Below, one piece after another: positions 21,760 through 55,136 of a stretch of DNA of 64,000 nt. The stretch's first letter is position 1. Each line of letters opens with the position of its first letter. Position numbers and translations under genes: made by a program. A model generated the notes under the pieces. That model did no database searches and was not told the origin of the DNA. It saw only the letters and a program-made list of their open reading frames with translations. The DNA comes from an uncultured Acidobacteriota bacterium (GTDB taxonomy: Bacteria > Acidobacteriota > Thermoanaerobaculia > Multivoradales > UBA5704). The stretch is taken from assembly GCA_963700145.1 (NCBI GenBank), contig OY969474.1:1-64000 (forward strand). Direction: 5' to 3'.

Positions 21760-21784
21760 TTCCGACCGCTCCCACACCACTGCC

Positions 21785-41898: not shown

Positions 41899-44484
41899 TC
41901 ACTCAGAGACCAGGTAGTAGCCCACGACGTCCAGCACGAGGTGGACCGTGCCCGCGGGCTGGTTCGCCCGTACGCTGACCGCTCCCGCCGCGCCGAGACG
42001 GACCATCGCGTTGTTGGAGCGGGCGCGGGTCGGGCCCGCGCGGTAGATAACGACGGAGCCCGCCGGGGGCGCCGTGTCGGCGGCGTAGACCTGGAGGTCC
42101 CCGTCGTCGGTGGCGCTCACCGCGGAGACGTTGAGGGCGACCGCCACGGCCTGGGCCGGGATGCCGCAGGTGCCGGCGAGCGGGAACGTGCGCTCGACGC
42201 CGGGGGCGAGCGCGGGACCGCCCTGCGGGCCTGCCGAGTCCCGCGTATCCACGAGGCGGCACGGTGTCAGCGTGAAGAAGTCGGCCGGCCGGTCGGGCCC
42301 GCTGATCTTTAGTAGAAAGCCGCTGGAGGCCGCGCTGGCGTCCGGGTCGAAGCTGGGCAACCCTCCGATGCCGTCGCCATCGGGGAAGCTGGTCTCGCTG
42401 GAGTGGGTCTGGCCGACGACATAGGCGGCGCCGGCGCCGTCCACGGCCACGCCGAACGCATCGTCGGTATCGACAGAGCTGCCGCCGATGTAAGTGGCAA
42501 AGAGCAACGGCGTCCCGCTCGCCGCCACCTTGACGACAAAGCCGTCGCCGTTGAGGTTGTACGTCGTGTCGGGGCCCGTAAGGCCGCCGAAGCCGTCGCC
42601 GTCGGGTAAGGTCGCCTGCGTGGAGCCGGTGTGGCCGACGACGTAGGCATTGCCGGCCGTGTCGAGGGCGACGTCGAAGGCTTCGTCGGTGGAGCTGCCG
42701 CCCAGGTAGCTGGCCCAGACGAGCGCCGCGCCCGCAGCATTCACCTTGGCCACGAAGGCATCCTCCATCCCGCCGTTGTGGGTCGTGTCCGCCCCGGTGA
42801 GAGCGCCGAAGCCGTCGCCGTCGGGGAACGTCGCCTCCGTGGACTGAGTCGTACCGACGAGGTAGGCCTCGCCGGTCGGAGCCACGGCGAGGCCGCCGGC
42901 CGCCCTTTCGTATGAGGCGCCGCCGACGTAGCCGGCGTAGAGGAAGGCCGTTCCCGCCGCGTCGATCTTGGCGATGAAGGCATCCGCGAGGCCGTTGTGC
43001 GTCGTGTCCGGTCCGCTGAGGGCGCCGAAGCCGTCGCCGTCGGGGAAGGTCGCCTGCGTCGACATGGTCGTACCCGCGAGGTAGGCGTTGCCGGTCGAAT
43101 CTACGGCGACGTCGGTGGCGCCATCGGTGCCGAGGCCGGCGCCGCCGATGTAGCCGGCGTTGAGGAACGCCGTGCCCGCGGCGTTCACCTTGACGAAGAA
43201 GCCGTCGTCGTACGACCCGTTGTAGGTCGTGTCCGGTCCAGGAAGACCGCCGAAGCCGTCGCCGTCGGGGAAGGTCGTCTCGGTGGAGTTGGTGACGCCG
43301 GCGACGTAGGCATTGCCGGCCCCGTCCACGGCGATGGAGTTCGCCCTATCGGAACCGGAGCCGCCGACGAAACCCGCATAGAGCAGCGAAGTGCCGGCGG
43401 CATCGAGCTTGGCGACGAAGCCATCGGAAGCTCCGCCGTTGAAGCTCGTGTCGGGTCCGGAGACGGCCGGAAACCCCGTACCGGTCGTGTCTCCGGCAAC
43501 GTAGACATTGCCGGCCGCATCGATCGCGAGGTCAGCGATCCAGGAGACGCCCTGGAAGTAGGCGGTCCAGAGAACGGCGGTGCCGGCCGCATTGATCTTG
43601 GCGACGTAAACCAGGGTGCTGGAAGACCCGGGTGGGTGATAGTCGCTGATGCAGGCCGCGTAGGCATTGCCCGCCCCATCCACGGCGACCGCCGAGCAGG
43701 CGTCGTAGTCGAACTCCGGGTCGAAGTTCCTCCCGAAGAAGCCGGCGTAGACGAAGACCTCGGGGTCGATGAGCAGCGGCAGGCGAGGGTCGTAGGCGCC
43801 GAGTCGGAAGCCGTGGCTGCCGCCGGCGGTGTCGAGGTCGTAGGCCGTCGCGACCTCGACCGCGCGGCCGCCCACCGTCTGGAAGGAGACCGGCCGCGCG
43901 TCGTGGAGGCTTCCCGCGGGCGTTTCGACCTCGAGCTCCCCCCGGGCGTTCACCGCCAGTCGCGTGGCGCCGCGATAGGCCAAGCGGATCCGGCGCGGAT
44001 CGGCGCCGGGGCGCACCAGGAGCTCGTACTTCAGCCGCCCGGCGGCGCCGGAGAAGATCAGGTCGATCCCCGGCCAGAGGTCCGGGTAGACCAGCCGGGA
44101 GTAGGTCGGGATCCCGGCGCGCCAGCTCGCCGGCTGGCCCTGGAAGTAGCTCACCACGGCCGGCGTTCTGGCCTCGGCCCGCGGCTGGACGTCGCGGGCG
44201 GCTCCCACGAACTCCAGGCGCAGGGCGTCCGGTGGCTCGGCTCCCCGCGCCTTCGAGTGGAGGAGGAACGTCAGCGCCTGCGCCGTGAAGGAGAGGGTCT
44301 TGTCCCGGTCCTGGACGTAGTAGGCGACGTGCGGGTCGGCCTGGCCGCGGTTCTCGATGAAGGAGAGCGGTAGGCGTGCCAGCGCGGCCTCCTGCCGCAC
44401 GTTCCGGGCGCCAGCCGGCGAGGCGCCGGCAGCGAAGCCGAGGAGGGAGACGATGAGGGCCGTCCAGGCTTCGCGACTGCGCAT
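41899..44484 (-). CDS. Secreted SBBP beta-propeller repeat protein with C-terminal PCRLVDTR domain
   Basis: FIENRGQ, LWPGIDL, LKYE..V.PGADP; AVD..GNAYV.G.T repeats; PCRLVDTR...CGIP...AVALNV; TAGCTT 8 nt before ATG 44484. Confidence 0.88.
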   Translation of the reverse strand: MRSREAWTALIVSLLGFAAGASPAGARNVRQEAALARLPLSFIENRGQADPHVAYYVQDRDKTLSFTAQALTFLLHSKARGAEPPDALRLEFVGAARDVQPRAEARTPAVVSYFQGQPASWRAGIPTYSRLVYPDLWPGIDLIFSGAAGRLKYELLVRPGADPRRIRLAYRGATRLAVNARGELEVETPAGSLHDARPVSFQTVGGRAVEVATAYDLDTAGGSHGFRLGAYDPRLPLLIDPEVFVYAGFFGRNFDPEFDYDACSAVAVDGAGNAYAACISDYHPPGSSSTLVYVAKINAAGTAVLWTAYFQGVSWIADLAIDAAGNVYVAGDTTGTGFPAVSGPDTSFNGGASDGFVAKLDAAGTSLLYAGFVGGSGSDRANSIAVDGAGNAYVAGVTNSTETTFPDGDGFGGLPGPDTTYNGSYDDGFFVKVNAAGTAFLNAGYIGGAGLGTDGATDVAVDSTGNAYLAGTTMSTQATFPDGDGFGALSGPDTTHNGLADAFIAKIDAAGTAFLYAGYVGGASYERAAGGLAVAPTGEAYLVGTTQSTEATFPDGDGFGALTGADTTHNGGMEDAFVAKVNAAGAALVWASYLGGSSTDEAFDVALDTAGNAYVVGHTGSTQATLPDGDGFGGLTGPDTTYNLNGDGFVVKVAASGTPLLFATYIGGSSVDTDDAFGVAVDGAGAAYVVGQTHSSETSFPDGDGIGGLPSFDPDASAASSGFLLKISGPDRPADFFTLTPCRLVDTRDSAGPQGGPALAPGVERTFPLAGTCGIPAQAVAVALNVSAVSATDDGDLQVYAADTAPPAGSVVIYRAGPTRARSNNAMVRLGAAGAVSVRANQPAGTVHLVLDVVGYYLVSE

Positions 44485-44532
44485 GCGACGCGAAGCTACC
44501 ACGCCGGCGGCAGCGAGTGCAGCAGCAGGAGC

Positions 44533-44561
44533 TTGACGTGGTCGGTGAATCTTAGTATTTT
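44533..44561 (+). promoter_or_regulatory. Sigma70-type promoter for the SIR2-TIR/STAND operon
   Basis: TTGACG-N17-TATTTT in the AT-rich intergenic region. Confidence 0.5.
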
Positions 44562-44696
44562 TGTACCAGACTCCGCGGTACATCGATGCAGAGCGGCGCA
44601 AGAGCCCGGGTTGCGTCTGGGTAGCCTTACAGGCACGGACAATCAAATGACATCTGGACGTGATCTGCCAAACTCGTTCCGAAAAGAGGTTGGGCG

Positions 44697-45983
44697 GTGA
44701 AAGAGAAGGACTGGGGCACGCTCCTTTGGAGTTTGCAGCGTCGCAACTGCATCCTTCTTCTGGGACCAGAACTCACGGCCGAAGGCCTGCCGGGAAGCAC
44801 GACGCTTACCGGGGAACTCGCGCGGCAGCTCGCAAGCGATATCGAGCCGCCTTTGCTGGCGACGACGGACTTGCCGCGCGTCGCACAGCAGTACCTTGCT
44901 CAGAATGGTCGCAACGACCTGGAACGAGAAGTTGTCCGTTTCTACGCGGCGCACGAGGACGACTCGTCGGAGATCCACGAAGCGCTCGCCGCCGTGCCGT
45001 TTTACTTTGCCATCACGTCATGCCACGACAGCCTGCTACGGCGCGCCATGGAGAGGGCGGGTAAGGCCCCCTTCGCCGAGCGGTACAACTTCCAGGGCGA
45101 CAAAGAGGACAACGTCCCGATGGGGACGGTTGACCGCCCCCTGATCTATCACCTCTACGGCTCCATCCAGGAGCCGGAATCGCTCGTACTCACCGAAAAC
45201 GATCTTCTCGATTTCCTGGTAGCAGTCGTATCGAAGAACCCATCGCTGCCGGACAACGTCCGCAGTGCGCTGCAGAAGAAGGGCAAGAATTTTCTCTTCC
45301 TCGGCTTCGGGATCAGGCACTGGTATCTCCGCATCCTGCTCCACCTCTTAAAGTTCAATCAATCCGACAGTCGCTCGTTCGCCCTTGAGGCATTTCAGGC
45401 CCAGAACTTTCCGGACCTCGAGCAGACGGTCCTCTTCTACAAGACCGGCTTCAAGATCGAGGTGTTCGACACCGAGATCGAGACCTTCGTCCAGGAGCTC
45501 CGCGAGCGCTACCAGGCGATGTCGCCCTCCCTCGAGGCGCCGCCGTCCGGCAGGGGCCTGCGCCAAGCGCGCGTCTTCCTCTCCTATGCCAGTGAGGATC
45601 AAGCGACCGCCAGACGGCTGTGCCAGGAGCTGCGAGAGGGCGGACTTGATCCCTGGATGGACAAGACGGGGCTCGGCCCGGGGGTGGAATGGGACGGGAT
45701 GATCGAGGAGAAGCTCGAGGAGGCGGACTATGTCTGCGTCCTCCAGAGCCGGGCCCTTGCGGACAAGAGATTCAGCTACGTCAACAAAGAGATCAAGCTT
45801 GCCCTCGAGCGCCAGAGGTATGCCCAAAAGGGAGTGCTCTACCTCATCCCTCTCCAGATCGACGACGGTCCACGATTGGACATCCTCAAGGAGCTCGAAA
45901 CCTTGTCGCTGCGCGACGATGACGCGGTCAGGAGTTTGGTCACCACGATCAAGCGGGACTTCCAGCGCCGCGGAAGGCAGTAG
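44697..45983 (+). CDS. Degenerate SIR2-like domain fused to C-terminal TIR domain
   Basis: SIR2 variants ILLLGPEL, ITSCHD, IYHLYGS, LVLTEND, FLFLGFG; TIR VFLSYASED, PWMD, YVNKEI..AL. Confidence 0.85.
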   Translation: MKEKDWGTLLWSLQRRNCILLLGPELTAEGLPGSTTLTGELARQLASDIEPPLLATTDLPRVAQQYLAQNGRNDLEREVVRFYAAHEDDSSEIHEALAAVPFYFAITSCHDSLLRRAMERAGKAPFAERYNFQGDKEDNVPMGTVDRPLIYHLYGSIQEPESLVLTENDLLDFLVAVVSKNPSLPDNVRSALQKKGKNFLFLGFGIRHWYLRILLHLLKFNQSDSRSFALEAFQAQNFPDLEQTVLFYKTGFKIEVFDTEIETFVQELRERYQAMSPSLEAPPSGRGLRQARVFLSYASEDQATARRLCQELREGGLDPWMDKTGLGPGVEWDGMIEEKLEEADYVCVLQSRALADKRFSYVNKEIKLALERQRYAQKGVLYLIPLQIDDGPRLDILKELETLSLRDDDAVRSLVTTIKRDFQRRGRQ

Positions 45984-45985
45984 GG

Positions 45986-48900
45986 ATGGCCGCCACCTTC
46001 CACTCCCGCTACCCCGGGGCGCGCTCCTTCCAGGACGATGACGTCGATCGCAAGCTCTTCCGAGGCCGCGACAGAGAAAAGGAATCTCTGCTGCACCTGG
46101 TGCTCGCCGAGGATCTCGTCGTCGTCTACGCGAAGTCGGGCATGGGAAAGACGTCGTTGCTCAACGCAGGGCTGATGGAGCCGCTGCGCGAGGAGGGGTA
46201 TCTGCCCATGAGTGTTCGTCTGAACGACCCCGCGGCGGGGCCCTTCCGGACGCTCTACGACGGCATCGCCGAAAAGGCCACCCAACAGGGAATCGAGCAC
46301 GTCTCTGGCGACGAGACCTCGCTGTGGCACTTCTTCAAGACGCTCGAGCTGTGGCGCGGCGACGATCTGCTCACGCCGGTGCTGATCCTCGATCAGTTCG
46401 AGGAACTCTTCACCCTGCAGTCGCGCGCGAACCGGCGCGCCTTCATCGACCAGCTCGCGGACCTGGTCCGCGGCAAGGTGCCTCAAGACCTCGCCGAGAG
46501 CCGCGGCCTCGAGGACGATCGCCGTTTGAGCCCCTCCGCACCCCTGATCAAGGTGGTGCTCGCGATCCGCGAGGACTTCCTCGGCAACCTGGAGGAGCTG
46601 GGTCGCAAGATTCCGAATATCTTGAATACCCGCTTCCGCCTCGGCCCGCTCAGTCGAGACGAAGCGCGGCGGGCGATCAGCGAGCCGGCGCGGGTTCTCG
46701 ACGAGCAGATCCCCACCGCGCGCTTCGACTACGAGCCCGCGGCCGTCGAGGCGATCCTCGACTTCCTCGCCGAGCGCCATCTGCAAGGGGGGGTCGACAC
46801 CACCCCCGAGATCGAACCATTCCAGCTCCAGCTCATATGCCAGCACGTCGAGTCGATCGTGGCTGCGCGCCAGGCGGCCTCCGGAGCCGTAGCGCCGATC
46901 ACTTACGACGACCTCGGGGGAGACGCTGGCATCTACGAGATGCTCAAGGGATTCTGTGACAGCCAGATCGGGGCGATCGCGGACACCTACGGCAGGCGCG
47001 CGCTTTACCGGCTATGTGAGCAGGGGTTGATCAGCCCGCACGGCCGCCGCCTGAGCCTCGAGGAGGGCGAGATCGAGCGCCGATTCCGTGTGCCCAAGGA
47101 AGCCCTGCACCACCTGGTGAACCGGCGCCTCCTCAGAGCTGAGCCGCGGCTCGGGAGTTTCTCCTACGAGCTAAGCCATGACACCTTGGTCGCGCCGATC
47201 CTCGCCTCGCGCGAGCGCCGTGCGCGGTCCCGGCGACTATGGGCAGGCGGCGCGGCCCTCGCGGCGGTGCTCGTCGTGGTCGCCGTCTTCGGCAGGCGCG
47301 GCTACGTCCATGGGCAAGAGGATGCCCTGGCCGACGACGCGCGACGGATCGGCGAGTACCTAGCGAGCGATCCCCCGCGGGCCCTCGTCCTGGCTGTGGA
47401 CGCGACCGGCCGTAGCCTCTCGCTCTACGGCGAGCCCACGCCCCAAATCTCCCTCGAATTGGCCAAGGTGGTCGAGAAGGCCCGCTTTACGCGCTCACGG
47501 ATCCTCCAGGAGATGCAGCCAACGGCCAGCGCCCTCGCCCCCGGAGGAGAGATCGCCGCGACCGGGACCGAGGATGGCAGGATCGTTCTCTACGATACCG
47601 CAGGTAACCGTCTGCGCGAGCTCGCTCCAGCCGGGGGAGGGCCGGTCACGCAACTTGCGTTCAGCCCCGGGGGCCAATGGATCGCAGCGGTGACAGGGGA
47701 GCGGCTGCGGCTCTGGAGCCGGGAGGGCCGGTCCGAAGGCCATCCCTACGCGGTCACGGGCGGCGTGCGGGCGATCGCCTTCCGCCCGGGCGACGACTGC
47801 TTGGCCGTGGCCACACCAGCGGGGCTGCGCCTTCTGGAGATCGCGAAGAAGCGGTGGAGCGGCGGGAAGCCGCAGGGCGGAATTACGCGCTTGACCTTCA
47901 GTCACGACGGCGAGCGGCTGCTCTCTTTGCATCAGGACGGCACGGCTCGCGTATGGGGCGTGCCCTCGCCGGGGGCGCTGTCCAATGCGAGCAGCGCCCT
48001 GGCGGTGATCAGCTCGCCCAATGATTGGTCGTTCGGCGGCAACCGGCGGGCCCTACTTAAGCCTGATGGGATCTGGATCGGGGACCGCGGGACCAGGCGT
48101 CTGCGCCCGCTCACAGGGATCGGCGAGAGCCCGACATCGCTGGCCCTGAGCCCCGACGGCAAGAGCATCGCTGTTGGATTGTACGCCGGCGGTTTCGAGC
48201 TGCATCGCCTCGAAAAAGAACGCAAGGCAGCGAAGGCCACTGGCAGCGCCACCCCTGCCACCGCCGGCTCCAAGGCAGTCGCGACGCGGATCTTCGAGAA
48301 GCCTCAGGGCACTGCTACGACGGCGCTGGCTCTAGATTCGACGACGGACTTCGCGGCGACCGGCGAGGCTGACGGCACGATTACGTTTTGGAACCGCACA
48401 ACCGGAGATTTCACGGCTCAGGAGAGAGCTCACGAGGGTTATATCTTCGCCCTCGCCATCGATCGCAAGGAGCACCGGCTGATCAGCGGTGGCAGCGATT
48501 GCGCAATCAGAATCTGGAGCCTCGATCGTAAGCTGTTGCGTGATCTCACGCGCAGCGGCGAGAACTGTGCAGTGATGGGTCTAGCCGTCCACCCAGGGGC
48601 GGAGTTTTTCGCCCTTGGTGACCGGGCAGGACATATCGAGACGTGGAGCTTCGACGGCCGACGCCTCTCGTCGTCCACAAGCGAGCCGGTTCTCGCCCTG
48701 GCGATAGGCCCCAAGGGCGTCGTGAGCTCGGCGCACTTCGACGGCGCAGTGCGTGAATGGTCAACCGACCAGGGCCGAGATCTCTCCCTACTCGACGAAG
48801 TTCCTGCTCCCCATCTGCTGATGACGGCCGCAACCTTTGCCCCGGATGGCGCCATCGTGCTCGGCGGTGAGGACGGCCGCTGGCGGATGGTTCCCCAGGA

Positions 48901-51900
48901 GAGCTACATGCAGGATCCGGGCGACGGTGTGATCAGGTTCGACGAGAGCGGCGAAGGGGTCAAGACGCAGGATGCCCACAAGGCGGCTGTGCAAGTCCTG
49001 GCCTTCAGCTCGGACGGCCTGAGCCTGGTTAGTGGCGACGCGGTGGGCGGCCTGCGCCTGTGGAGCGCGGAGGGTGAGCTGCTAAGTGACCCCATCCCGG
49101 GCCGGGGGTCGCCCACGACTGCCGCCGGCTTCAGCGGCGATGGCGAGAGCGTGCTGGCCCTTGCCCGTGACCTCACGCTGACAATCTGGGACCGCCACGG
49201 CATGAACCCACCGGGTGTTCCGGAGGCTCAGATCGGCGAAGGCTTTGGTCTCGCTATCGATCCTAAGGGAGCATTTTTCGCCACGATCTCTGACAGTGGC
49301 GACGGCAAGCAGTTGGCCGTATGGGATCTGCATACAGCCCGGAAGCTGAGCTGGTCTAGCGAGATCGAGCAGTGCTCGCCTGCAGGCATCGCCATCCGCC
49401 CGGACGGGTTGGGGATGGCTGTCGGCTGCGAGGACGGGCATATTGCCATGGTGGATGCTTGGTTGGACGAGCTGCCCAGCGCGTCCAAGAAGCCGGGCGC
49501 CGCCGTCCGGGCACTCGCCTTCGATCCACAAGGGCAGTACTTTGCGGCCGGCGACGACGATGGAAGGCTGGGCCTCTGGGACGCGCGAGGGAGGCCTCTC
49601 GCCGCGCCGCCATGGCCGGCGCATGCGGGTCCCGTGCTCGCGCTCGCGGTAAGCCCGGACGGCAACTGGATCGCTAGCGCCGGCGGCGAGGCGCCACCCG
49701 CCGGCGCTGGAGCGGTCCGCAAGGACGACTCCAACGTCAAATTGTGGAACCGTTGGAAACCGGGCGAGGTCGTTTGGCCACGTCCCTGGAATGTTCTCTC
49801 CAGCCACCCGCGTCGCGGCATCAACTCCTTGGCCTTTAGCCCCGACGGTAGAACCCTAATCACCGGCGGGGATGACGGGATGGTCCGCTTCTGGAACGTC
49901 GAGGACGGCACGGAGCAGCAGATCCTGGAGACCCAGGGAGGTCGCGTCGCCTCGGTCGCCTTCAGCCCCGACGGTACGCAAATCCTCACCGCGGGCTTCG
50001 ACGGCAACCTCCGGCTCTGGGATCTTCAGCGTAATCTGCTCGCGCTGGCCCTCCCCATCCGCGCCAATGCCGGGCCTGGAGAGGAGTTAGCCGTTCAGGC
50101 GGCCTTTGCCCCCGGGGGAGACCTCCTCGTCAGTAGCGCGGCGCAGGGGAGGTCACTGCTCCGGCGAGGGAGCTGGCGCGGGTGGCTGCAGGTCGCCTGC
50201 CATCGCCTGCGCCGCGATGATGGCTGGCGCCGTCCCAGCCTACCCGGCGAGCGCAAGGCCCGAGAAACCTGCGAGCGGTGGGCTGGGCCCGACGACGATC
50301 CATGGAGCGGGCTGGCATCCGCCGGACAGGCACCGCCGGGCTCCACGCCCCTCCATCGGGCTGTCGTGATGGGGGTTGTGGGAGACGTGACGTCTCTGCT
50401 CCTCGAGGGGCAGGACCCCAACGTCCGCGATGCAGCGGCCCGGACGCCGCTCGCCCTTGCGGTTGCGGCGGGCCGTGCCGAGGCGGCCCGGGCGCTCCTC
50501 GCCAACCACGCGGATCCCAGGCTCGGGGACGGCTTCGGCGACACCCCCCTCCACCAGGCCGCCGCCCGCGGTGACTCGATGGTGATCGACCTCCTCCTTC
50601 GCGGCGGGGCCGCGCCGGGCGCACGCAACCGCTACGGCGTGACGCCCCTCATGAACTCGGCCCATCGCGGCCATGCGGCCGCTGCCCGGGCGTTGCTCGA
50701 CAAGGGGGCTCCGGTCGACACGGCGGATGACGGAGGAAACACCGCCTTGATGGACGCTGCCAGAAATGGCCATCTGGATCTTGTGGAGCTATTGATCGCG
50801 CGAGGAGCCGACATCAACCGGGAGAATCGGACTCCGGCGCGGATGACCGCCCTGCGCTGGGCGAGGTACGGAGGACATTCCGGCGTTGTCGATTTCCTCC
50901 AAGCGAAAAGTCTGCGCGTCAGCGAAGACCTGCCCACGGCCGTCCAGCGCATCCACCTGGCGCGCTATGCTCCCGCCCACCTGCGGCCGGCTGCCGCGAC
51001 GCTGGGGCGCTGGTGGACACCGATCCGGAACGAAGTCAGCATGCGGACTTTCCGCTCGGTCCGCGCGATCGCCGAGCAAGGCGACAGCTTTGCGCAGTTC
51101 CTGGTGGGTTACGCCTTGGCGCGGGGGCTAGGAGTCGGCCGCGATCCGGACGCCGCCCTGATTTGGTACCGCCGATCGGCCGAACAGGGCGACCCGCTCG
51201 GCCAAGCCGCGCTCGGGATGGCCTACTGGACGGCCGAAGGTCCGCGTACGCGGCAGGACATGCAACAGGCCCTGCTCTGGAACCAACGATCCGCGGCGCA
51301 GGGTCATCCCGTGGGCCACTGGAACCTCGGCAACATGTACAGCCAGGGTATCGGGGTCGAGAACTCCTCCGGGACCGGCGCCCTCTGTTCTTACCTAGAG
51401 GCCGCCCGCGCGCAACTCGCAGACCTTGTTTGCAGCCCCCCAGTTCCGGCCCAACGCCAATGGGCGCGCGCCGATCCCGCCGCGATCAATTCCGTCGGCT
51501 GGAGTCTCGACAACGGTGCGGGTTACAGAGAGGACTCGCAAGCTGCTTTCGCCTACTTCCGGCGGGCCGCTAGCCAAGGGGACCTGGTCGCCCAGCGCAA
51601 TATCGGCTCGATGTGGCTCTATGGAAGGGCTGTCCCGAGATCTCTCGCGCAAGCCCACGTGTGGCTGCGGCGGGCGGCCGACCAGGGGCACGGCGGTGCC
51701 ATGTCTCTCCTAGGCCATAGCTACCTCTATGGCTTAGGGGTCCCGGCCTCTGCCGTCGAGGCCCTGAGTTGGTACAGACGGGGCGGCGAGGCCGGCAATC
51801 GTTCGTCTCAGCGCCAGACAGGTTGGATGCTGGAGCGCGGCCTCGGGGAGGAGCGGTCGCTGGTCGCCGCCGTGGGCTGGTACCGAAGAGCCGCCGCGCA

Positions 51901-51952
51901 AGGCAGTATTCCCGCCACCCAGAGACTCGAGAGTCTGGGGATAAAGCCGTGA
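45986..51952 (+). CDS. nSTAND1 NTPase - TM helix - WD40 repeats - ankyrin repeats - Sel1 repeats (1988 aa)
   Basis: YPG..SF, YAKSGMGKTSLLNAG, LDQFEELF, IREDF, YELSHD; TM LWAGGAALAAVLVVVAVF; AFSPDG..WD; TPLH.AA; WYRRSAEQGD. Confidence 0.9.
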   Translation: MAATFHSRYPGARSFQDDDVDRKLFRGRDREKESLLHLVLAEDLVVVYAKSGMGKTSLLNAGLMEPLREEGYLPMSVRLNDPAAGPFRTLYDGIAEKATQQGIEHVSGDETSLWHFFKTLELWRGDDLLTPVLILDQFEELFTLQSRANRRAFIDQLADLVRGKVPQDLAESRGLEDDRRLSPSAPLIKVVLAIREDFLGNLEELGRKIPNILNTRFRLGPLSRDEARRAISEPARVLDEQIPTARFDYEPAAVEAILDFLAERHLQGGVDTTPEIEPFQLQLICQHVESIVAARQAASGAVAPITYDDLGGDAGIYEMLKGFCDSQIGAIADTYGRRALYRLCEQGLISPHGRRLSLEEGEIERRFRVPKEALHHLVNRRLLRAEPRLGSFSYELSHDTLVAPILASRERRARSRRLWAGGAALAAVLVVVAVFGRRGYVHGQEDALADDARRIGEYLASDPPRALVLAVDATGRSLSLYGEPTPQISLELAKVVEKARFTRSRILQEMQPTASALAPGGEIAATGTEDGRIVLYDTAGNRLRELAPAGGGPVTQLAFSPGGQWIAAVTGERLRLWSREGRSEGHPYAVTGGVRAIAFRPGDDCLAVATPAGLRLLEIAKKRWSGGKPQGGITRLTFSHDGERLLSLHQDGTARVWGVPSPGALSNASSALAVISSPNDWSFGGNRRALLKPDGIWIGDRGTRRLRPLTGIGESPTSLALSPDGKSIAVGLYAGGFELHRLEKERKAAKATGSATPATAGSKAVATRIFEKPQGTATTALALDSTTDFAATGEADGTITFWNRTTGDFTAQERAHEGYIFALAIDRKEHRLISGGSDCAIRIWSLDRKLLRDLTRSGENCAVMGLAVHPGAEFFALGDRAGHIETWSFDGRRLSSSTSEPVLALAIGPKGVVSSAHFDGAVREWSTDQGRDLSLLDEVPAPHLLMTAATFAPDGAIVLGGEDGRWRMVPQESYMQDPGDGVIRFDESGEGVKTQDAHKAAVQVLAFSSDGLSLVSGDAVGGLRLWSAEGELLSDPIPGRGSPTTAAGFSGDGESVLALARDLTLTIWDRHGMNPPGVPEAQIGEGFGLAIDPKGAFFATISDSGDGKQLAVWDLHTARKLSWSSEIEQCSPAGIAIRPDGLGMAVGCEDGHIAMVDAWLDELPSASKKPGAAVRALAFDPQGQYFAAGDDDGRLGLWDARGRPLAAPPWPAHAGPVLALAVSPDGNWIASAGGEAPPAGAGAVRKDDSNVKLWNRWKPGEVVWPRPWNVLSSHPRRGINSLAFSPDGRTLITGGDDGMVRFWNVEDGTEQQILETQGGRVASVAFSPDGTQILTAGFDGNLRLWDLQRNLLALALPIRANAGPGEELAVQAAFAPGGDLLVSSAAQGRSLLRRGSWRGWLQVACHRLRRDDGWRRPSLPGERKARETCERWAGPDDDPWSGLASAGQAPPGSTPLHRAVVMGVVGDVTSLLLEGQDPNVRDAAARTPLALAVAAGRAEAARALLANHADPRLGDGFGDTPLHQAAARGDSMVIDLLLRGGAAPGARNRYGVTPLMNSAHRGHAAAARALLDKGAPVDTADDGGNTALMDAARNGHLDLVELLIARGADINRENRTPARMTALRWARYGGHSGVVDFLQAKSLRVSEDLPTAVQRIHLARYAPAHLRPAAATLGRWWTPIRNEVSMRTFRSVRAIAEQGDSFAQFLVGYALARGLGVGRDPDAALIWYRRSAEQGDPLGQAALGMAYWTAEGPRTRQDMQQALLWNQRSAAQGHPVGHWNLGNMYSQGIGVENSSGTGALCSYLEAARAQLADLVCSPPVPAQRQWARADPAAINSVGWSLDNGAGYREDSQAAFAYFRRAASQGDLVAQRNIGSMWLYGRAVPRSLAQAHVWLRRAADQGHGGAMSLLGHSYLYGLGVPASAVEALSWYRRGGEAGNRSSQRQTGWMLERGLGEERSLVAAVGWYRRAAAQGSIPATQRLESLGIKP

Positions 51953-52092: not shown

Positions 52093-54168
52093 ATGCAGGA
52101 CCTCGAAGCCCGCGTCAAAGCGGCGGTTGCCAAGATCGAAGGCCGCGATCCCAAGCTGGCCGATGAGCTGAACGAGCTCCGCGGGAGTGCGAAGACCAAG
52201 AAGGAAGCCAGGGCCCTGGCGCCGGCGATGGCCCTGCGGGGGCTCGCACTGGAGGGGGCGGCTCCCAGGCCGGCGGTCGCGCTCGAAACGATCGTGCTGC
52301 GGGTCGGCCGCCCGGTGCTGGCGGTCGTCCGCGACGAGGCCCTCCTCGAGTTCCAGGACGCGGAGAGCGAGATCTGGCGGCAGCGGCTGACCGACGCGCG
52401 CGACCGCCTGGTGCCGGCCATCAAGGCGGTCGGCCGCATCGAGGTGGAGAACCATCCACGGTTCGAATGGCTCGGGACCGGATGGCTGGTCGCCGACGAC
52501 GTCGTGGTGACGAACCGGCACGTGGCGCGCGAGTTCGGCCGCGGCAGCGGCTCCGGCTTCGTCTTCCGGCCGGGCCGGGCCAACCGGCGGATGACCGCGT
52601 CGATCGATTTCCTGGAGGAGTTCGACCGCCCCGAGAGCCTGGAGTTCCGCCTGCGGCGCATCCTGCACATCGAGGGCGACGGCGGACCCGACGTGGCGCT
52701 GCTCCAGGTCGAGCCGGTTGCGGGAAGGGGCCTGGCGGCGCCGATCAGGCTCGGCGTCCGGAGAGGCGCGGGAGGAGCAGCAGGTGGCCGTGATCGGCTA
52801 TCCGGCGAAGGACAGCCGGATCCCGGACCAGCAGCTCATGCAGGACATCTTCGGCGACGTCTTCGACAAGAAGCGGCTGGCGCCGGGCCAGATCACCGGC
52901 AGCGCGGGCCACGAGCTCGCTGCACGACTGCTCGACGCTCGGCGGCAACTCCGGCTCGGTGGTGCTCGACCTCGAGACCGGCGAGGCGCTCGGTCTCCAC
53001 TTCGCCGGCCGCTTCCTGGAGGCGAACTTCGCGGTGCCCGCCGCGCTCGTCGCGGAGCGGCTGCGGCGGCTCGGCCGCGAGGGTGCGCGCCCCGCCGCGG
53101 CGCGCCCGCCGGCCGGCGCGCGCGGCACTCTCCAGTCGCGCTCCGGCGGCGCCACGGCCTCCGTCGACGACGATCAGCCTACACGATCCCGGTCCGGGTC
53201 ACGGTGGACATCGGCGCTCCGGTCGCCGGCGAGCCGGCCGGGCGCGCAGGGCACGCCACCCGGCGCTCCTCGCGCCGACCCCTGCCGACGTGGGCGACGA
53301 CGAGGACGAGATCCTCCTCGACGTCGAGGCGCGGCCGGAGGACTACGCAGACCGGCCCGGCTACACGGCCGGGCTTCCTCGGCTACGGGTTCGAGGTCGC
53401 CGCTGCCGGCGCTGGGCGCGGAGCTGGAGAGCGACCTGCTCACCTTCGAGGTCGACGGGGAGACGGAGAGCGAGCTCCGCTACCAGCACTTCTCGGTCGT
53501 CATGAGTCAGAGCCGGCGCCTCTGTCTCTACAGCGCGGTGAACATCGACGGCGACCAGTCGCGGAAGGTGAAGCGCACCGGATGGCGGCTGGACCCGCGG
53601 ATCGCCCAAGGAGGCGCAGATCCTCCGCGAGTGCTACGGCAACGCGCCCAAGTTCAGCCGCGGCCACATGACGCGGCGCGAGGACCCGATCTGGGGCTCC
53701 GCAGGGGACGCCAAGCTCGGCAACGCCGACTCCATGCACGTCACCAACGCCGTGCCGCAGATGCAGGTCGTTCAATGCCGGCATCTGGCTCGGCCTCGAG
53801 GACTACGCCCTCGACAACGCGCGCGAGGACGACATGCGGATCTCGGTGTTCACGGGACCGTTCCTGCGCGACGACGACCCGGTCCGCTTCGGCGTCCAGG
53901 TCCCGCGCGACGTTCTGGAAGGTCATCGCGTTCGTCCACGACGAGACGGGCGAGCTCTCCGCCACGGGCTACACGATGTCGCAGGACGACTTCCTGCGCG
54001 AGGAGGAGTTCGTCTTCGGCCAGCACGAGACGTCGCAGGTGCCGATCGTCGCTGATCGAGCAGCGGACCGGGCTGTCGTTCGGCGACCTCGCCTCCCGCG
54101 ATCCGCTCGGCGAGGTGGAGGAGGCCCTGCCGGCGCCGCTGACGGATTTCCGGCAGATTCGGTTCTAG
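52093..54168 (+). pseudogene. Trypsin-like serine peptidase fused to DNA/RNA non-specific (EndoG/NucA-like) endonuclease, frameshifted as sequenced
   Basis: GTGWLV, VTNRHV, DVALL, VIGYP, HDCSTLGGNSGS; LRYQHFSV, YSAVNIDG, SRGHMTRREDP, TNAVPQ, FWKV in successive frames. Confidence 0.82.
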
Positions 54169-54197
54169 GTAGTTCTACCTTCAAGGGAGGTCTCTCC

Positions 54198-55130
54198 ATG
54201 CCTCATGTCACGTTCGTCCACGGCATCGCCAATAAACCCCCGACGGACAAGCTGCTGGACCTCTGGCGGCGCAGCCTGGCGGAGTCCGACGGCCCCGACC
54301 TCGGCAGCGAAGGGGTCACCAGCTCGATGGTCTACTGGGCGGACGTGTTGTACGCCGAGCCGCTCAAGGAGGGCATGGAGGAGAGCGCCACGGACGAGTC
54401 CACGGTCGAGGCCGTGTCGCCCGAGTCCCCGGACCTCGGCGTCGAGAACATGGACGCCGCGGAGCAGCTCTGGGTGGCCGAGCTCGCGGTCAAGCTGGCC
54501 GTCCCGCTCGCCGCCGAGGAGGCGGTCGAGGCCCTGCCCACGCCCGTGCGCGAACAGCTCGAGCGCATCCCCCTGCCCTGGCCGGTCAAGGAGCGGCTCA
54601 TGCGGCGCCTCCTGCGGGACGTCCACCACTACCTCTTCAACGTCGACTACAGCCCACGGCCGGGAGAGACCTTCAAGGTGCAGGACGAGATCCGCGGGCG
54701 GATGATCAAGGCGTTGCAGGAGGGCGCGACCATGCCCGGCCCCCACGTCGTGATCAGCCACAGCATGGGCACGGTGATCGCCTACGACTGCCTGAAGCGA
54801 GTCGGCGACGCACCCGTGGTGGACGGTCTGATGACCATCGGCAGCCCGCTCGGAATCGACGAGGTCCAGGACAAGCTGCGGCCGGAGTGGAGCCGGGACA
54901 ACGGCTTCCCGCACGAGAAGGTCCGCGGCAAGTGGATCAACGTCTACGACCGTCTCGATCCGGTGGCCGGCTTCGATCCGAGCTTCGCCAACGACTACCG
55001 GCGCGGCGGCCAGAGGACGGTCGAGGACGTCAACGAGCAGAACTCCGGCTCGTGGCGCCACAACGTCAGCAAGTACCTGAGCGGGGCGCAGCTCCGGGCA
55101 CGCGTGCGCGAGATGCTGGGCTTGGAGTGA
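54198..55130 (+). CDS. Alpha/beta hydrolase (lipase-like)
   Basis: GGAGG RBS; FVHGI, ISHSMGTVIAYD, TIGSPLG, W.NVYD..DPV, H...KYL. Confidence 0.85.
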   Translation: MPHVTFVHGIANKPPTDKLLDLWRRSLAESDGPDLGSEGVTSSMVYWADVLYAEPLKEGMEESATDESTVEAVSPESPDLGVENMDAAEQLWVAELAVKLAVPLAAEEAVEALPTPVREQLERIPLPWPVKERLMRRLLRDVHHYLFNVDYSPRPGETFKVQDEIRGRMIKALQEGATMPGPHVVISHSMGTVIAYDCLKRVGDAPVVDGLMTIGSPLGIDEVQDKLRPEWSRDNGFPHEKVRGKWINVYDRLDPVAGFDPSFANDYRRGGQRTVEDVNEQNSGSWRHNVSKYLSGAQLRARVREMLGLE

Positions 55131-55136
55131 ACGACG

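What the first reader, a model, noticed from the sequence alone, without database searches (positions are those of the whole stretch)
44697..51952. Pseudo-SIR2-TIR plus a transmembrane NLR-like receptor with WD40, ankyrin and Sel1 arrays
Seen: genes 2 bp apart. The SIR2 motifs are degenerate (GPE for GAG, SCHD for TNYD, LYG for LHG) while the TIR keeps its Glu (NKEI). The STAND protein has one TM helix after the NTPase, so ~1500 aa of three repeat classes would lie across the membrane. Known: TIR domains are NADases or signal synthases activated by clustering. Inference: a periplasmic sensor oligomerises the cytoplasmic STAND, which recruits TIR through a catalytically dead SIR2 adaptor, a Toll-receptor-like layout.
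Basis: partly seen in the sequence, partly recalled or inferred. Interest (0 to 1): 0.78.

Follow-up and report, generated by a model that had tools for sequence, protein, structure and literature searches.

The report
Membrane-spanning STAND with pseudo-SIR2-TIR partner
Two coupled genes encode an NLR-like ATP switch that appears to cross the cell membrane, with a huge repeat sensor facing outwards, and a partner enzyme built from a dead SIR2 domain and an intact NAD-cleaving TIR domain: a widespread, untested variant of bacterial innate immunity.

Summary
Window 44697-45983 encodes a 428-aa SIR2_2 + TIR_2 protein. Two bases later, 45986-51952 encodes a 1988-aa protein with an nSTAND1 NTPase, one hydrophobic helix (residues 418-436), then WD40, ankyrin and Sel1 arrays.

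The SIR2 catalytic Asn and His are missing across the family (Asn in 1 of 120, His in 4 of 120). The TIR catalytic Glu is present in 120 of 120.

The pair is a conserved module. In 75 of 80 loci from many phyla the gene after the SIR2-TIR gene is a close homologue of this NTPase. In 63 of 72 of those a hydrophobic segment follows the NTPase directly. In single-pass forms a polybasic stretch lies on the N side in 22 of 23, which predicts N-in, C-out.

The part after the membrane segment is swappable: TPR, WD40, FGE-sulfatase, a polytopic membrane domain, or WD40-Ank-Sel1 again in the nearest relative.

The same genome holds a second copy, a broken TIR-nSTAND1 fusion, and, in this window, an active SIR2 + nSTAND1 pair.

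Not shown: binding through SIR2 (complex prediction gave weak support only), topology, NADase activity and the trigger. No paper found describes the module. I rate it a new variant of a known kind.

The parts
44684..44689 (+). Shine-Dalgarno-like AAGAGG, 7 nt before the GTG start of the SIR2-TIR gene
   Evidence: Read from the sequence. The start agrees with the N-termini of homologues (MKERDW... and VKEKDW...).
44697..45983 (+). Gene 1: pseudo-SIR2-TIR protein, 428 aa (P0001)
   Evidence: Full-length homologues at 40-81% identity. 337 representatives of 50%-identity clusters at E <= 1e-30.
44697..45521 (+). SIR2-like domain (aa 1-275), catalytically degenerate. C109 (45021-45023) stands at the Asn position and Y154 (45156-45158) at the His position. 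G23, D111 and G155 are kept.
   Evidence: Pfam SIR2_2. hhalign to the active stand-alone SIR2 of this window: probability 96.8%, 263 columns. Alignment to ThsA. Counts in 120 members. Foldseek hits to ThsA, KomC, DSR2 and EfAvs5.
45522..45566 (+). Linker (aa 276-290), low model confidence
   Evidence: pLDDT below 50 for residues 278-287.
45567..45980 (+). TIR domain (aa 291-428) with catalytic-position Glu E365 (45789-45791)
   Evidence: Pfam TIR_2 E 5.7e-21. Nearest solved relatives are the SPARTA TIR-APAZ TIR domains, AbTIR and SARM1. Glu present in 120 of 120.
45986..51952 (+). Gene 2: membrane-spanning STAND protein, 1988 aa (P0002). It starts 2 nt after the stop of gene 1, with GGAAGG upstream.
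45986..47230 (+). nSTAND1 NTPase module (aa 1-415): N-terminal RYPG...FRGR motif, Walker A GMGKTS (K55, 46148-46150), Walker B ILDQFEE (D136, 46391-46393), helical and winged-helix parts
   Evidence: Pfam nSTAND1. Invariant columns in 39 orthologues. AlphaFold model with pLDDT 91.9 and pTM 0.86. Foldseek hits to ORC/Cdc6, archaeal ATPases, ZAR1, NLRC4, Apaf-1 and NLRP3.
47207..47236 (+). Polybasic stretch SRERRARSRR (aa 408-417) on the N-terminal side of the membrane helix
   Evidence: The same feature precedes the helix in single-pass orthologues: K+R in 15 aa averages 5.7 before against 2.3 after, and the N side is richer in 22 of 23.
47237..47293 (+). Predicted transmembrane helix LWAGGAALAAVLVVVAVFG (aa 418-436)
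   Evidence: The only hydrophobic peak in the protein (KD 2.31). It is modelled as part of one long helix, 399-441. A hydrophobic segment lies 14-58 aa after the conserved SHD motif in 63 of 72 orthologues.
47456..50185 (+). WD40-type beta-propeller arrays (about aa 491-1400), predicted extracytoplasmic
   Evidence: Pfam WD40 and beta-propeller families in all three pieces scanned.
50381..50905 (+). Ankyrin repeats (about aa 1466-1640)
   Evidence: Ank_2 E 2.7e-36 on the piece 1441-1670. PADLOC PDC-M72A match at 1466-1637.
51089..51925 (+). Sel1 repeats (about aa 1702-1980)
   Evidence: Sel1 E 6.6e-43 with 5 stretches on the piece 1671-1988.

Best explanation
This is a two-gene conflict (immune-type) module of the nSTAND1 kind.

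Gene 2 makes an NLR-like ATPase anchored in the inner membrane by one helix. The NTPase lies in the cytoplasm. About 1,550 residues of WD40, ankyrin and Sel1 repeats lie in the periplasm and act as the variable sensing part.

Gene 1 makes the effector, which stays in the cytoplasm. It has an intact TIR domain, most likely an NADase switched on by clustering. This is fused to a SIR2 domain that has lost its catalytic Asn and His but remains under selection. I read the SIR2 domain as the surviving docking or regulatory part of an older SIR2 + nSTAND1 pair.

Proposed sequence of events: an envelope or periplasmic cue changes the oligomeric state of the receptor; the cytoplasmic NTPases assemble; the bound SIR2-TIR partners are brought together; the TIR active sites form; NAD+ is consumed and the cell stops growing or dies.

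Shown here: the domains, the motif states, the gene linkage, conservation of the membrane segment and its charge bias, and the swapping of the C-terminal part.

Inferred: topology, binding through SIR2, activation by oligomerisation, NADase output and the immune role.
For: (1) Linkage. In 75 of 80 genome loci holding a SIR2-TIR homologue, the next gene on the same strand is a close homologue of P0002 residues 1-445 (phmmer E from 5e-38 to 1e-130). Two of the 5 misses end at a contig edge. Distance matrices of SIR2, TIR and NTPase correlate at r = 0.97 over 60 pairs. Many of those rows are close kin, so this shows co-inheritance only.

(2) Effector state. Among 120 family members the Asn position holds N in 1. 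The His position holds H in 4 and Y in 104. The TIR Glu is present in 120. The SIR2 part is as conserved as the TIR part (mean p-distance 0.515 against 0.514). G23, D111 and G155 are kept in 118, 114 and 119 of 120.

(3) The NTPase looks intact. Walker A G-x-G-K and Walker B D-Q-F-E are invariant in 39 orthologues. The model is confident (pLDDT 91.9) with an ORC/Cdc6/NLR-like fold.

(4) Membrane. P0002 has a single hydrophobic peak. A hydrophobic segment directly follows the NTPase in 63 of 72 orthologues. The charge bias points N-in in 22 of 23 single-pass forms. Omp85 homologues are present in the genome: 4 matches, best E 2.3e-54, and the control matched only the 7 double-membraned genomes among the 14 well-known ones.

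(5) Variable C-terminal part, as expected of a sensor. In 13 orthologues scanned it holds TPR in 6, WD40 in 1, WD40+Ank+Sel1 in 1, FGE-sulfatase in 1 and no Pfam match in 4. Compared with the nearest relative, L037, the NTPase is 53% identical but the collinear ectodomain only 27%.

(6) Related arrangements. An active SIR2 (TTNYD, KMHG) followed by an nSTAND1 protein lies in this window at 4632-1134 on the minus strand. All 5 further loci with homologues of that SIR2 are also followed by an nSTAND1-like gene. A second SIR2-TIR + nSTAND1-TM-WD40 pair (29% identity) and a TIR-nSTAND1 fusion are in the same genome.

(7) Complex prediction of NTPase 1-415 with P0001: weak support. Score 0.49 (runs 0.53, 0.47, 0.49); best of 3 controls 0.00. 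The mark was reached by 58 of 80 solved complexes and 2 of 110 mismatched pairs. At 0.60 or under it was reached by only 7 of those 80 and by both mismatches that passed. The runs agree in at least 42% of contacts and the partner pLDDT is at least 73. My own alignments were used, so these counts hold only roughly.

(8) Accessory-gene behaviour. No match in 60 other genomes of the same order at E <= 1e-20. The NTPase tree mixes phyla. GC3 is 0.79-0.80 against 0.85-0.97 in most neighbouring genes. A NucA-type endonuclease and TPR-S/trypsin genes lie directly downstream.
Against: - No experiment exists for any member that I could find.
- The complex score is in the band where passes are more often wrong than right unless the prior was high, and no interface was reported. 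Which domain of P0001 touches the NTPase is therefore unknown.
- Six orthologues have only two membrane helices and a short tail, and 31 have a polytopic membrane domain instead of a soluble ectodomain. A soluble periplasmic sensor is therefore not a defining part of the module.
- Nine of 72 orthologues show no hydrophobic segment by my simple scale; 2 of those are cut by contig ends.
- Topology rests on hydropathy and the positive-inside rule only. No dedicated predictor was available.
- Three loci have a SIR2-TIR gene, or a truncated one, with downstream flank and no STAND gene: L023, L026 and L090.
- No PADLOC model recognises the pair as a system. No copy was found on phages, and only partial matches were found on 3 plasmids, so the link to phage defence is by analogy.
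- A conserved Tyr at the SIR2 His position (104 of 120) could mean a ligand-binding or other chemistry rather than docking.
Confidence: 0.55

Rival explanations
1. The membrane itself is what is sensed. The conserved feature is a STAND NTPase held at the inner membrane, triggered by envelope or membrane perturbation such as phage DNA entry, depolarisation or pore formation. The WD40-Ank-Sel1 part only positions or tethers the protein in the envelope, for example to peptidoglycan or outer-membrane partners.
For: Minimal orthologues consist of the NTPase plus two membrane helices with a tail of 50-110 residues (6 rows). A large clade has 5-8 membrane helices instead of soluble repeats (31 rows; the two together form one clade of 38 rows with SH-aLRT 100). 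Sel1 repeats preceded by a membrane segment were described as peptidoglycan-associating parts of other conflict systems (PMC7159879, passages seen).
Against: In the single-pass clade that holds P0002, the ectodomains are large, differ in kind (TPR, WD40, FGE-sulfatase) and diverge faster than the NTPase (27% against 53% identity). That is the pattern of a ligand-recognising part.
Confidence: 0.15
2. The TIR domain is a signal synthase, not a terminal NADase. The pseudo-SIR2 domain is a nucleotide-binding regulatory pocket in the same chain. This would be a ThsA-like SIR2-plus-Rossmannoid layout with the roles rearranged, and the output acts on some other target.
For: The best Foldseek matches of the whole P0001 model are ThsA (SIR2-SLOG) chains, aligned over 450-479 columns (8bto_A E 6.8e-13; also 7uxt, 8wc0, 6lhx). 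The SIR2 part keeps G23 of the Gly-rich loop and D111 of the TNYD motif. It also keeps a near-fixed Tyr at the His position.
Against: No third conserved gene that could be a signal-activated effector follows the pair in this window. The neighbours are a DUF7948/SBBP protein upstream and a separate NucA/trypsin set downstream. The TM-scores to ThsA are low (0.38-0.42) with rmsd of 14-15 A, so the two-domain match is loose. The nearest TIR relatives by sequence are the SPARTA TIRs, AbTIR and SARM1. I recall these as NAD-consuming effectors.
Confidence: 0.12
3. The module is not antiviral. It is a cell-surface recognition and self-destruction device for dealings between cells (kin or competitor recognition, predator sensing, or programmed death in a social bacterium).
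For: An outward-facing protein-binding array (WD40, ankyrin, Sel1) would meet foreign cells or secreted proteins rather than cytoplasmic phage proteins. The papers that defined nSTAND1 and related systems tie them to bacteria with a multicellular habit (PMC8195603 and PMC7159879, passages seen).
Against: The module occurs in many phyla without a known social habit, for example Nitrosomonas, Gallionella, Methylococcaceae and Aminicenantes MAGs. Its patchy, transfer-prone distribution is typical of defence genes.
Confidence: 0.08
4. The hydrophobic helix is not a membrane span. The whole protein is cytoplasmic and works as an ordinary STAND with C-terminal repeats that sense a cytoplasmic ligand.
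For: WD40, TPR and FGE-sulfatase sensors are the usual cytoplasmic sensors of bacterial STANDs (PMC12803255, passages seen). Nine of 72 orthologues lack a clear hydrophobic segment.
Against: The segment is 19 residues of L, A, V, G, F and W with KD 2.31. It is conserved in position but not in sequence. It is preceded by a polybasic stretch in 22 of 23 single-pass forms. In a sister clade it is replaced by 2-8 such segments. In the model it continues a solvent-exposed long helix (399-441) rather than forming a buried strand or core helix.
Confidence: 0.05

Closest known systems
nSTAND1-centred counter-invader systems (Kaur, Iyer, Burroughs, Aravind, eLife 2021, PMC8195603; Pfam PF20703)
   Same: The NTPase is a clear nSTAND1 member (121 bits against cut-off 27.1). 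NAD-targeting effectors including TIR and C-terminal repeat arrays belong to that described repertoire (passages seen).
   Different: The passages I could read describe effectors or effector-associated adaptor domains fused at the N-terminus. Here the effector is a separate upstream protein and no known adaptor domain is present. A membrane helix separates the NTPase from the repeats, and the partner carries a dead SIR2. 'SIR2' occurs once in that paper, in another context. Its source-data files could not be opened.
Avs5 / SIR2-STAND (EfAvs5, PDB 9jap; preprint 10.1101/2024.09.15.613165, abstract start seen in a search listing)
   Same: A SIR2 module is coupled to a STAND NTPase with a C-terminal sensor. 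The EfAvs5 chain is among the Foldseek hits of P0001 (E 1.7e-6). The active SIR2 + nSTAND1 pairs found here are the split counterpart.
   Different: Avs5 is one cytoplasmic chain with a catalytic SIR2. Here there are two chains, the SIR2 lacks Asn and His, a TIR is added, and the NTPase is membrane-anchored. No Avs model of PADLOC matched.
Thoeris ThsA (SIR2-SLOG) and ThsB (TIR)
   Same: These are the closest solved folds and sequences for the SIR2 part (SeThsA E 2.7e-14; Foldseek ranks 1-8). SIR2 and TIR work in one pathway.
   Different: In Thoeris the TIR makes a signal and the SIR2 is the killer. Here the SIR2 is dead and fused to the TIR, there is no SLOG domain, and a STAND NTPase is the obligate neighbour.
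SPARTA (short Argonaute with TIR-APAZ)
   Same: These are the nearest solved TIR domains by sequence (8j8h_B E 4.9e-13, 8qlo_A 6.6e-13). Their activation is by oligomerisation, as the entry title 'Tetramerized activation of MapSPARTA bound with NAD+' says.
   Different: The sensor is completely different (guide-loaded Argonaute in the cytoplasm) and there is no NTPase.
Toll-like receptors and plant TIR-NLRs
   Same: The logic matches: a repeat-array sensor, clustering, and a TIR output. The STAND switch matches that of TIR-NLRs.
   Different: TLRs are N-out single chains with an LRR ectodomain and a cytoplasmic TIR, and they have no NTPase. Plant TNLs are wholly cytoplasmic. This module combines a membrane-spanning sensor with a STAND switch and a TIR supplied in trans.

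Membership tests
nSTAND1 STAND NTPase (PF20703) | Match to the family model above the curated cut-off | tested here: met
   E 1.2e-34, 121 bits against cut-off 27.1, residues 9-402.
nSTAND1 STAND NTPase (PF20703) | Intact Walker A and Walker B motifs and an NBD-helical-winged-helix fold | tested here: met
   G52, G54, K55, D136, Q137 and E140 are invariant in 39 orthologues. Model pLDDT 91.9 with hits to ORC/Cdc6, ZAR1, NLRC4, Apaf-1 and NLRP3.
Canonical tripartite STAND/NLR (effector - NOD - repeats in one cytoplasmic chain) | N-terminal effector or adaptor domain in the same chain | tested here: not met
   The Walker A motif starts at residue 50. The first 28 residues are the conserved RYPG...FFGR lead-in of the NTPase. 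No effector family matched P0002.
Canonical tripartite STAND/NLR (effector - NOD - repeats in one cytoplasmic chain) | C-terminal repeat array contiguous with the NOD in the same compartment | tested here: not met
   Repeats are present but separated from the NOD by a predicted membrane helix. The compartment itself was not measured.
SIR2 NADase/deacylase (PF13289 SIR2_2, defence type) | SIR2 fold and sequence family | tested here: met
   SIR2_2 at 58 bits against cut-off 24.5. Matches to ThsA, KomC and DSR2 by sequence and fold.
SIR2 NADase/deacylase (PF13289 SIR2_2, defence type) | Catalytic Asn (TNYD) and His (xHG). The His is the residue mutated in the inactive DSR2(H171A) and KomC(H146N) entries. 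| tested here: not met
   C109 and Y154 in P0001. N in 1 of 120 and H in 4 of 120 family members. PDB entry titles.
TIR NADase (PF13676 TIR_2) | TIR domain with the conserved catalytic Glu | tested here: met
   TIR_2 at 75.7 bits against cut-off 28. E365 aligns with the Glu of the SPARTA TIR and is present in 120 of 120. That this Glu is catalytic is established knowledge of TIR NADases, which I recall.
TIR NADase (PF13676 TIR_2) | NAD+ cleavage activity | not testable with these tools
   Needs an enzyme assay.
Thoeris | ThsA with a SLOG (or Macro) signal-binding domain plus a separate ThsB TIR | tested here: not met
   No SLOG family matched in Pfam. The PADLOC ThsA hits (E 5e-11) cover only the SIR2 part, residues 40-225. 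The TIR is fused, not separate.
Avs5 (SIR2-STAND) | SIR2 fused to the STAND NTPase in one chain, with a catalytic SIR2 | tested here: not met
   The genes are separate. In the search for longer forms, the one protein found at E <= 1e-20 (776 aa) carried SIR2_2 and TIR_2 annotations but no STAND domain, among 7,999 candidates scored. This is weak evidence. The catalytic residues are absent.
Toll-like receptor | LRR ectodomain, one membrane helix and a cytoplasmic TIR in one N-out chain | tested here: not met
   No LRR is present. The TIR is on another protein, and the predicted orientation is N-in.

The most novel reading that the evidence does not exclude
Bacteria have a transmembrane NLR. It is a STAND ATP switch that reads the outside of the cytoplasm through a fast-evolving ectodomain, here a WD40-ankyrin-Sel1 array of about 1,550 residues. 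It passes the signal across the inner membrane by oligomerisation, without the intramolecular sensor-on-NOD autoinhibition that all studied NLRs use.

It fires a TIR NADase held on the NTPase by a pseudo-SIR2. That pseudo-SIR2 has a conserved Tyr-for-His pocket that still binds NAD+ or ADPR and gates the response.

This would be an innate-immune receptor combining the sensing geometry of Toll-like receptors with the switch of NLRs, able to act before or at genome entry.
Probability: 0.3. Interest if true: 0.85.

Novelty: new variant of a known kind. Interest (0 to 1): 0.64.

Why it matters
The studied bacterial STAND immune proteins that I recall or saw in the passages read (Avs, bNACHT) are wholly cytoplasmic and detect phage proteins inside the cell.

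This module is widespread: 337 sequence clusters at 50% identity, across many phyla. Its NOD is separated from its sensor by the membrane. That raises two testable questions:
- Can a STAND switch be driven from outside the cytoplasm?
- What envelope or extracellular cue does it read?

The module is also a natural case of a pseudoenzyme retained in an immune effector. A SIR2 without its catalytic Asn and His is as conserved as the live TIR beside it. Active SIR2 + nSTAND1 pairs from this genome and others are available as the comparison state.

The operon is small, at two genes and 7.3 kb, so it can be moved into a laboratory host for direct tests.

Tried and rejected
- Public sequencing runs for 44697-51952: none was listed, and no RNA holder was listed. 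Nothing can be said on expression.
- Metagenome scan with P0001: only 4 loci at 46-49% identity. The 78-81% identical proteins were not retrieved, so very close orthologues could not be compared.
- Phage collection: no match.
- Plasmids: 3 records, none covering 80% of the query. Two of these match only the SIR2 part. I read the Ensifer adhaerens pB locus by eye as an active SIR2 (TTNYD, HFHG) followed by a 1303-aa nSTAND1-like protein with a polybasic stretch and a hydrophobic segment. The NTPase similarity there was read from motifs, not scored.
- Search for longer fused forms of P0001: one 776-aa protein, with no STAND fusion. This is weak evidence of absence.
- PADLOC: no system-level model. 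Only domain-level hits were found (ThsA SIR2 part, TIR models, repeat models).
- Earlier-findings look-ups by place and by sequence returned nothing.
- Considered and rejected: a Thoeris variant (no SLOG domain, SIR2 dead) and Avs5 (not fused, SIR2 dead, membrane helix).
- Considered and rejected: a gene-calling artefact. Both ORFs have GC3 well above GC2, homologues are full-length, and the start codons agree with relatives.
- The careful maximum-likelihood tree did not finish in the time allowed. The quick tree is used and labelled as such.

Full report
WHAT IS THERE.

Gene 1 (44697-45983, +) starts at a GTG preceded by AAGAGG and ends at TAG 45981-45983. Gene 2 starts at ATG 45986, two bases later, and runs to TGA 51950-51952. 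Both show the GC3 > GC1 > GC2 pattern of coding DNA. Their GC3 (0.80 and 0.79) is lower than that of most neighbouring genes (0.85-0.97), and local G+C dips to 0.64. This suggests acquisition by transfer.

Gene 1 (P0001, 428 aa) matches Pfam SIR2_2 (106-230) and TIR_2 (293-414), both well above their curated cut-offs. An AlphaFold model built on 35 homologues (mean pLDDT 79) shows two Rossmann-like domains joined by a low-confidence linker at 278-287. Its best Foldseek matches in the PDB are ThsA chains aligned over 450-479 columns. These are followed by the SIR2 domains of KomC and DSR2, EfAvs5 (SIR2-STAND) and the TIR of SPARTA.

Gene 2 (P0002, 1988 aa) matches nSTAND1 (9-402), WD40-type propellers, ankyrin and Sel1. 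Scanning it in five pieces places propeller matches in all of 441-1440, ankyrin in 1441-1670 and Sel1 in 1671-1988. The NTPase part, modelled on 39 orthologues, is very confident (pLDDT 91.9, pTM 0.86). It resembles ORC/Cdc6 and archaeal ATPases first, then ZAR1, NLRC4, Apaf-1 and NLRP3, with no close solved relative (TM-scores at most 0.49).

THE SIR2 DOMAIN IS DEAD, FAMILY-WIDE, AND STILL CONSERVED.

A profile of the family aligns to SeThsA (E 2.7e-14) so that the family's 'tsthd' lies on TTNYD and 'hLyG' on KLHG. In P0001 these positions are C109 and Y154. I aligned 120 members: P0001 plus 119 of the 120 proteins listed, leaving out only the window's own copy. The Asn position holds N in 1 of 120 (T 52, C 33, S 18, A 9 and others). 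The His position holds H in 4, Y in 104 and F in 5. The PDB entries for inactive DSR2 and KomC are mutated at this His (H171A, H146N; titles).

Other SIR2 positions are kept: G23 in 118, D111 in 114 and G155 in 119 of 120. Over 60 module pairs the SIR2 part is as conserved as the TIR part (mean p-distance 0.515 against 0.514; NTPase 0.484). So this is a maintained pseudoenzyme, not a decaying one. The TIR Glu (E365, NKEI) is present in 120 of 120. It aligns with the Glu of the SPARTA TIR-APAZ TIR domains, the nearest solved relatives by sequence (E 4.9e-13).

THE PAIR IS A CONSERVED MODULE.

The SIR2-TIR protein has hundreds of full-length relatives. One search returned 500 at E <= 0.001 among 8,000 scored candidates, and the 120 best all carry both Pfam domains. 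One search found 337 representatives of 50%-identity clusters at E <= 1e-30 out of 1.84 billion. In the ESM Atlas the three best-scoring clusters (382, 70 and 337 members) are auto-named 'SIR2-like/TIR domain-containing protein'.

A scan of species-representative genomes gave 93 confirmed loci, of which the best 80 were kept. They come from Acidobacteriota, Pseudomonadota, Thermodesulfobacteriota, Actinomycetota, Bacteroidota, Verrucomicrobiota, Nitrospirota, Spirochaetota, Myxococcota, Gemmatimonadota, Omnitrophota and others.

In 75 of these 80 loci the next ORF on the same strand is a strong homologue of P0002 residues 1-445. That ORF abuts or overlaps the end of the SIR2-TIR gene. Of the five misses, two end at the contig edge (L086, L098). 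One is a truncated SIR2-TIR (L090). Two are full-length genes without the partner (L023, L026).

The distance matrices of the two genes correlate at r = 0.97 (Mantel p = 0.001 with 999 shuffles). Many rows are close kin, so this shows only that the genes travel together.

The module is patchy. None of 60 other genomes sampled from the same order has a match at E <= 1e-20. The NTPase tree interleaves phyla.

THE MEMBRANE HELIX.

P0002 has one hydrophobic peak, LWAGGAALAAVLVVVAVFG (418-436), with KD 2.31. Nothing else exceeds 1.31. It is preceded by SRERRARSRR and followed by RR and then an acidic stretch. In the model it is part of one long helix, 399-441, that leaves the winged-helix domain.

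Among 72 partner NTPases with E < 1e-70, 63 have a hydrophobic segment starting 14-58 residues after the conserved SHD motif that ends the NTPase. Of the 9 without one, 2 are cut by contig ends. The segment's sequence is not conserved, but its place is. In the 23 forms with a single segment, K+R in the 15 residues before it averages 5.7 against 2.3 after it. The N side is richer in 22 of 23.

By the positive-inside rule (established knowledge, recalled), this puts the NTPase in the cytoplasm and the C-terminal part outside. That also fits the NTPase's need for ATP and its partner's need for NAD+. The genome has Omp85/BamA homologues (best E 2.3e-54). The same search matched only the 7 double-membraned genomes among 14 controls. 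'Outside' therefore means the periplasm. No dedicated topology predictor was available, so the topology remains a prediction.

THE C-TERMINAL PART IS SWAPPABLE.

In a quick maximum-likelihood tree of 66 NTPase modules, forms with 5-8 membrane segments (31 rows) and forms with only two segments and a short tail (6 rows) fall in one clade of 38 rows (SH-aLRT 100). P0002 lies in the complementary starred set of 28 rows, made of single-pass forms (21) and forms with no detected segment (7). The careful tree search did not finish, so this is the quick tree.

I scanned the post-helix parts of 13 single-pass orthologues: 10 and 3. They hold TPR arrays in 6 (one of these also with Sel1), WD40 in 1, FGE-sulfatase in 1, no Pfam match in 4, and WD40 + ankyrin + Sel1 in 1.

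The last is L037, from an Acidobacteriaceae MAG, the nearest relative of P0002. Its NTPase is 53% identical over 406 columns. Its ectodomain is collinear with that of P0002 to the last residues, but only 27% identical over 1,064 columns. The three-class array is therefore an inherited unit, not an accident of this genome, and it diverges about twice as fast as the switch it is attached to.

RELATED ARRANGEMENTS IN THE SAME GENOME.

(i) A second pair lies at G000:C1:4781159-4785965. It has a SIR2-TIR at 29% identity over residues 5-427, with LTFD and HLLG at the two SIR2 motifs and the TIR Glu kept. This is followed by an nSTAND1 protein with RRNRRN plus a hydrophobic helix and about 14 regular WD40 repeats.

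(ii) Inside this window, on the minus strand, a stand-alone SIR2 (4632-3601) with intact TTNYD and KMHG overlaps the start of an nSTAND1 protein (3620-1134). That protein's C-terminal half is polytopic and weakly RDD-like. The pair sits in a 57% G+C island. hhalign aligns the whole pseudo-SIR2 region of the family (1-273) with this active SIR2 (probability 96.8%, E 2.4e-10, 263 columns).

Homologues of that active SIR2 were found in 4 of 400 other genomes of the phylum, at 5 loci. All 5 are followed by an nSTAND1-like gene. TTNYD is kept in 6 of 6 SIR2 genes there and the His in 5 of 6. An Ensifer adhaerens megaplasmid shows the same layout with a membrane segment and a propeller-like tail. 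I read this from the translation and did not score it.

(iii) A TIR_2-nSTAND1 fusion lies at about G000:C1:2491500-2493700. It is apparently broken by a frame change, since nSTAND1 positions 1-299 and 304-378 fall in two ORFs.

Taken together, SIR2 and TIR are both regular effectors of nSTAND1 switches. The simplest history for the present module is a SIR2 + nSTAND1 pair in which a TIR was added to the SIR2 protein and took over catalysis. The SIR2 body would then have been kept for something else. This ordering is an inference. I did not root or test it.

DOES THE PARTNER BIND THE NTPASE?

One complex prediction was run, with NTPase 1-415 and full P0001, using my own alignments. It gave weak support: score 0.49 (runs 0.53, 0.47, 0.49), best of 3 controls 0.00. 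The mark was reached by 58 of 80 solved complexes and 2 of 110 mismatched pairs. At 0.60 or under it was reached by only 7 of those 80 and by both mismatches that passed. The runs agree in at least 42% of contacts and the partner's pLDDT is at least 73. No interface was given.

Because the prior from gene linkage is high, I take this as mildly favourable to binding. It says nothing on whether SIR2 or TIR makes the contact. A search for longer, fused forms of P0001 found one 776-aa protein and no SIR2-TIR-STAND fusion among 7,999 scored candidates. This is weak evidence.

MECHANISM PROPOSED.

The steps run in this order:
1. An envelope or periplasmic cue is detected.
2. The oligomeric state of the single-pass receptor changes.
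3. The cytoplasmic NODs assemble, dependent on ATP.
4. The bound pseudo-SIR2-TIR partners cluster.
5. The TIR cleaves NAD+.
6. Growth arrest or death follows.

The last three steps borrow from solved systems in which TIR or SIR2 effectors are activated by assembly. Examples are the entry titles 'Tetramerized activation of MapSPARTA', the helical structures of ThsA and EfAvs5, and the KomBC filaments. A point of difference from every studied NLR follows from the topology. If the sensor is across the membrane it cannot autoinhibit the NOD by folding back on it, so control must come from lateral association or from the partner.

The main rival is that membrane state, not a periplasmic ligand, is sensed. 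This rests on the minimal two-helix and polytopic orthologues.

CONTEXT.

Directly downstream lie three ORFs:
- 52093-53505, with a weak Trypsin_2 hit (E 1.6e-4) and a weak PADLOC NACHT hit (E 5e-6).
- 52959-55130, an Endonuclease_NS protein.
- 55137-56786, a TPR-S + Trypsin_2 protein.

This composition matches the NucA-peptidase conflict system of PMC7159879 (passage seen). The module therefore sits in a conflict-gene neighbourhood.

WHAT IS KNOWN.

nSTAND1 was defined in PMC8195603. In the passages I read it is a STAND clade found with effector or adaptor domains, including TIR. PMC7159879 describes membrane-proximal conflict systems and Sel1 repeats behind membrane segments, but the word SIR2 does not occur in it. 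PMC10907252 (read as preprint 10.1101/2023.09.22.558884) notes that some STAND targets of diversity-generating retroelements may have periplasmic lectin domains. PMC12803255 surveys defence STANDs and their cytoplasmic sensors. The preprint 10.64898/2026.10.19.760177 mentions nSTAND1 once and SIR2 never. For all five papers I saw only the passages returned by 'find'.

No paper in the library holds 'SIR2-TIR' or 'TIR-SIR2'. The 19 papers listed (of 20 holding a term) for the phrases 'SIR2 and TIR' and 'TIR and SIR2' are, by title and abstract start, about other systems. Searches combining STAND, transmembrane, periplasmic and WD40 gave nothing on this module.

Earlier notes of this scan report the same module in at least eight other genomes, with the same reading. 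They are unchecked AI notes. I repeated their core claims here on this copy.

VERDICT.

I rate the module a new variant of a known kind: an nSTAND1/NLR-like conflict system with a membrane-spanning receptor and a pseudo-SIR2-TIR effector supplied in trans. This copy is complete. It has the largest and most composite ectodomain class seen among the orthologues examined. It also lies in a genome that carries the comparison states: an active SIR2 pair, a TIR fusion and a second copy.

Noticed in passing
window 1134-4632 (minus strand): A separate two-gene module in a 57% G+C island. A stand-alone SIR2 (4632-3601, 343 aa) has intact TTNYD and KMHG motifs. It overlaps the start of an nSTAND1 NTPase (3620-1134, 828 aa) whose C-terminal half is polytopic and weakly RDD-like. 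It is the active-SIR2 counterpart of the finding.
   Followed up: partly
window 52093-56786 (+): Three ORFs directly downstream. 52093-53505 has weak Trypsin_2 and weak NACHT-like hits and overlaps the next ORF in another frame. 52959-55130 has an Endonuclease_NS domain. 55137-56786 has TPR-S, MAP3K_TRAF_bd and Trypsin_2. The set resembles the NucA-peptidase conflict system of Kaur et al. 2020. The overlap of the first two ORFs may hide a frame change.
   Followed up: partly
G000:C1:4781159-4785965 (locus L021 3139-7966): A second copy of the module in the same genome: a pseudo-SIR2-TIR (451 aa, 29% identical, LTFD and HLLG motifs) followed by nSTAND1, one membrane helix and about 14 very regular WD40 repeats, ending in a Cys-rich tail.
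   Followed up: partly
G000:C1:about 2491500-2493700 (locus L001 720-2904, minus strand): A TIR_2-nSTAND1 fusion gene that seems broken. nSTAND1 profile positions 1-299 are in a 601-aa ORF and positions 304-378 in the next 269-aa ORF. A propeller-like fragment follows.
   Followed up: partly
window 41899-44646 (minus strand): The divergent upstream neighbour is a 915-aa protein with DUF7948 and SBBP beta-propeller repeats. No link to the module was seen or tested.
   Followed up: no
window 21731-30697 (+) and 16274-20836 (+): Two very large ORFs. The 2,988-aa one has Rax2-like propeller and 3-keto-disaccharide hydrolase-like matches. The 1,520-aa one has no Pfam match.
   Followed up: no
locus L106 (G310:C110), 335-2376 minus strand: Two SIR2 genes in tandem upstream of an nSTAND1-like gene. 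One has HLHG and the other HLYG at the His motif, and both keep TTNYD. This is a possible intermediate between active and pseudo-SIR2 partners.
   Followed up: no
protein P0123: A 776-aa relative of the SIR2-TIR protein (44% identity over 99% of the query) that a source names 'MinD-like ATPase'. It may be a fusion to a ParA/MinD-type NTPase.
   Followed up: no
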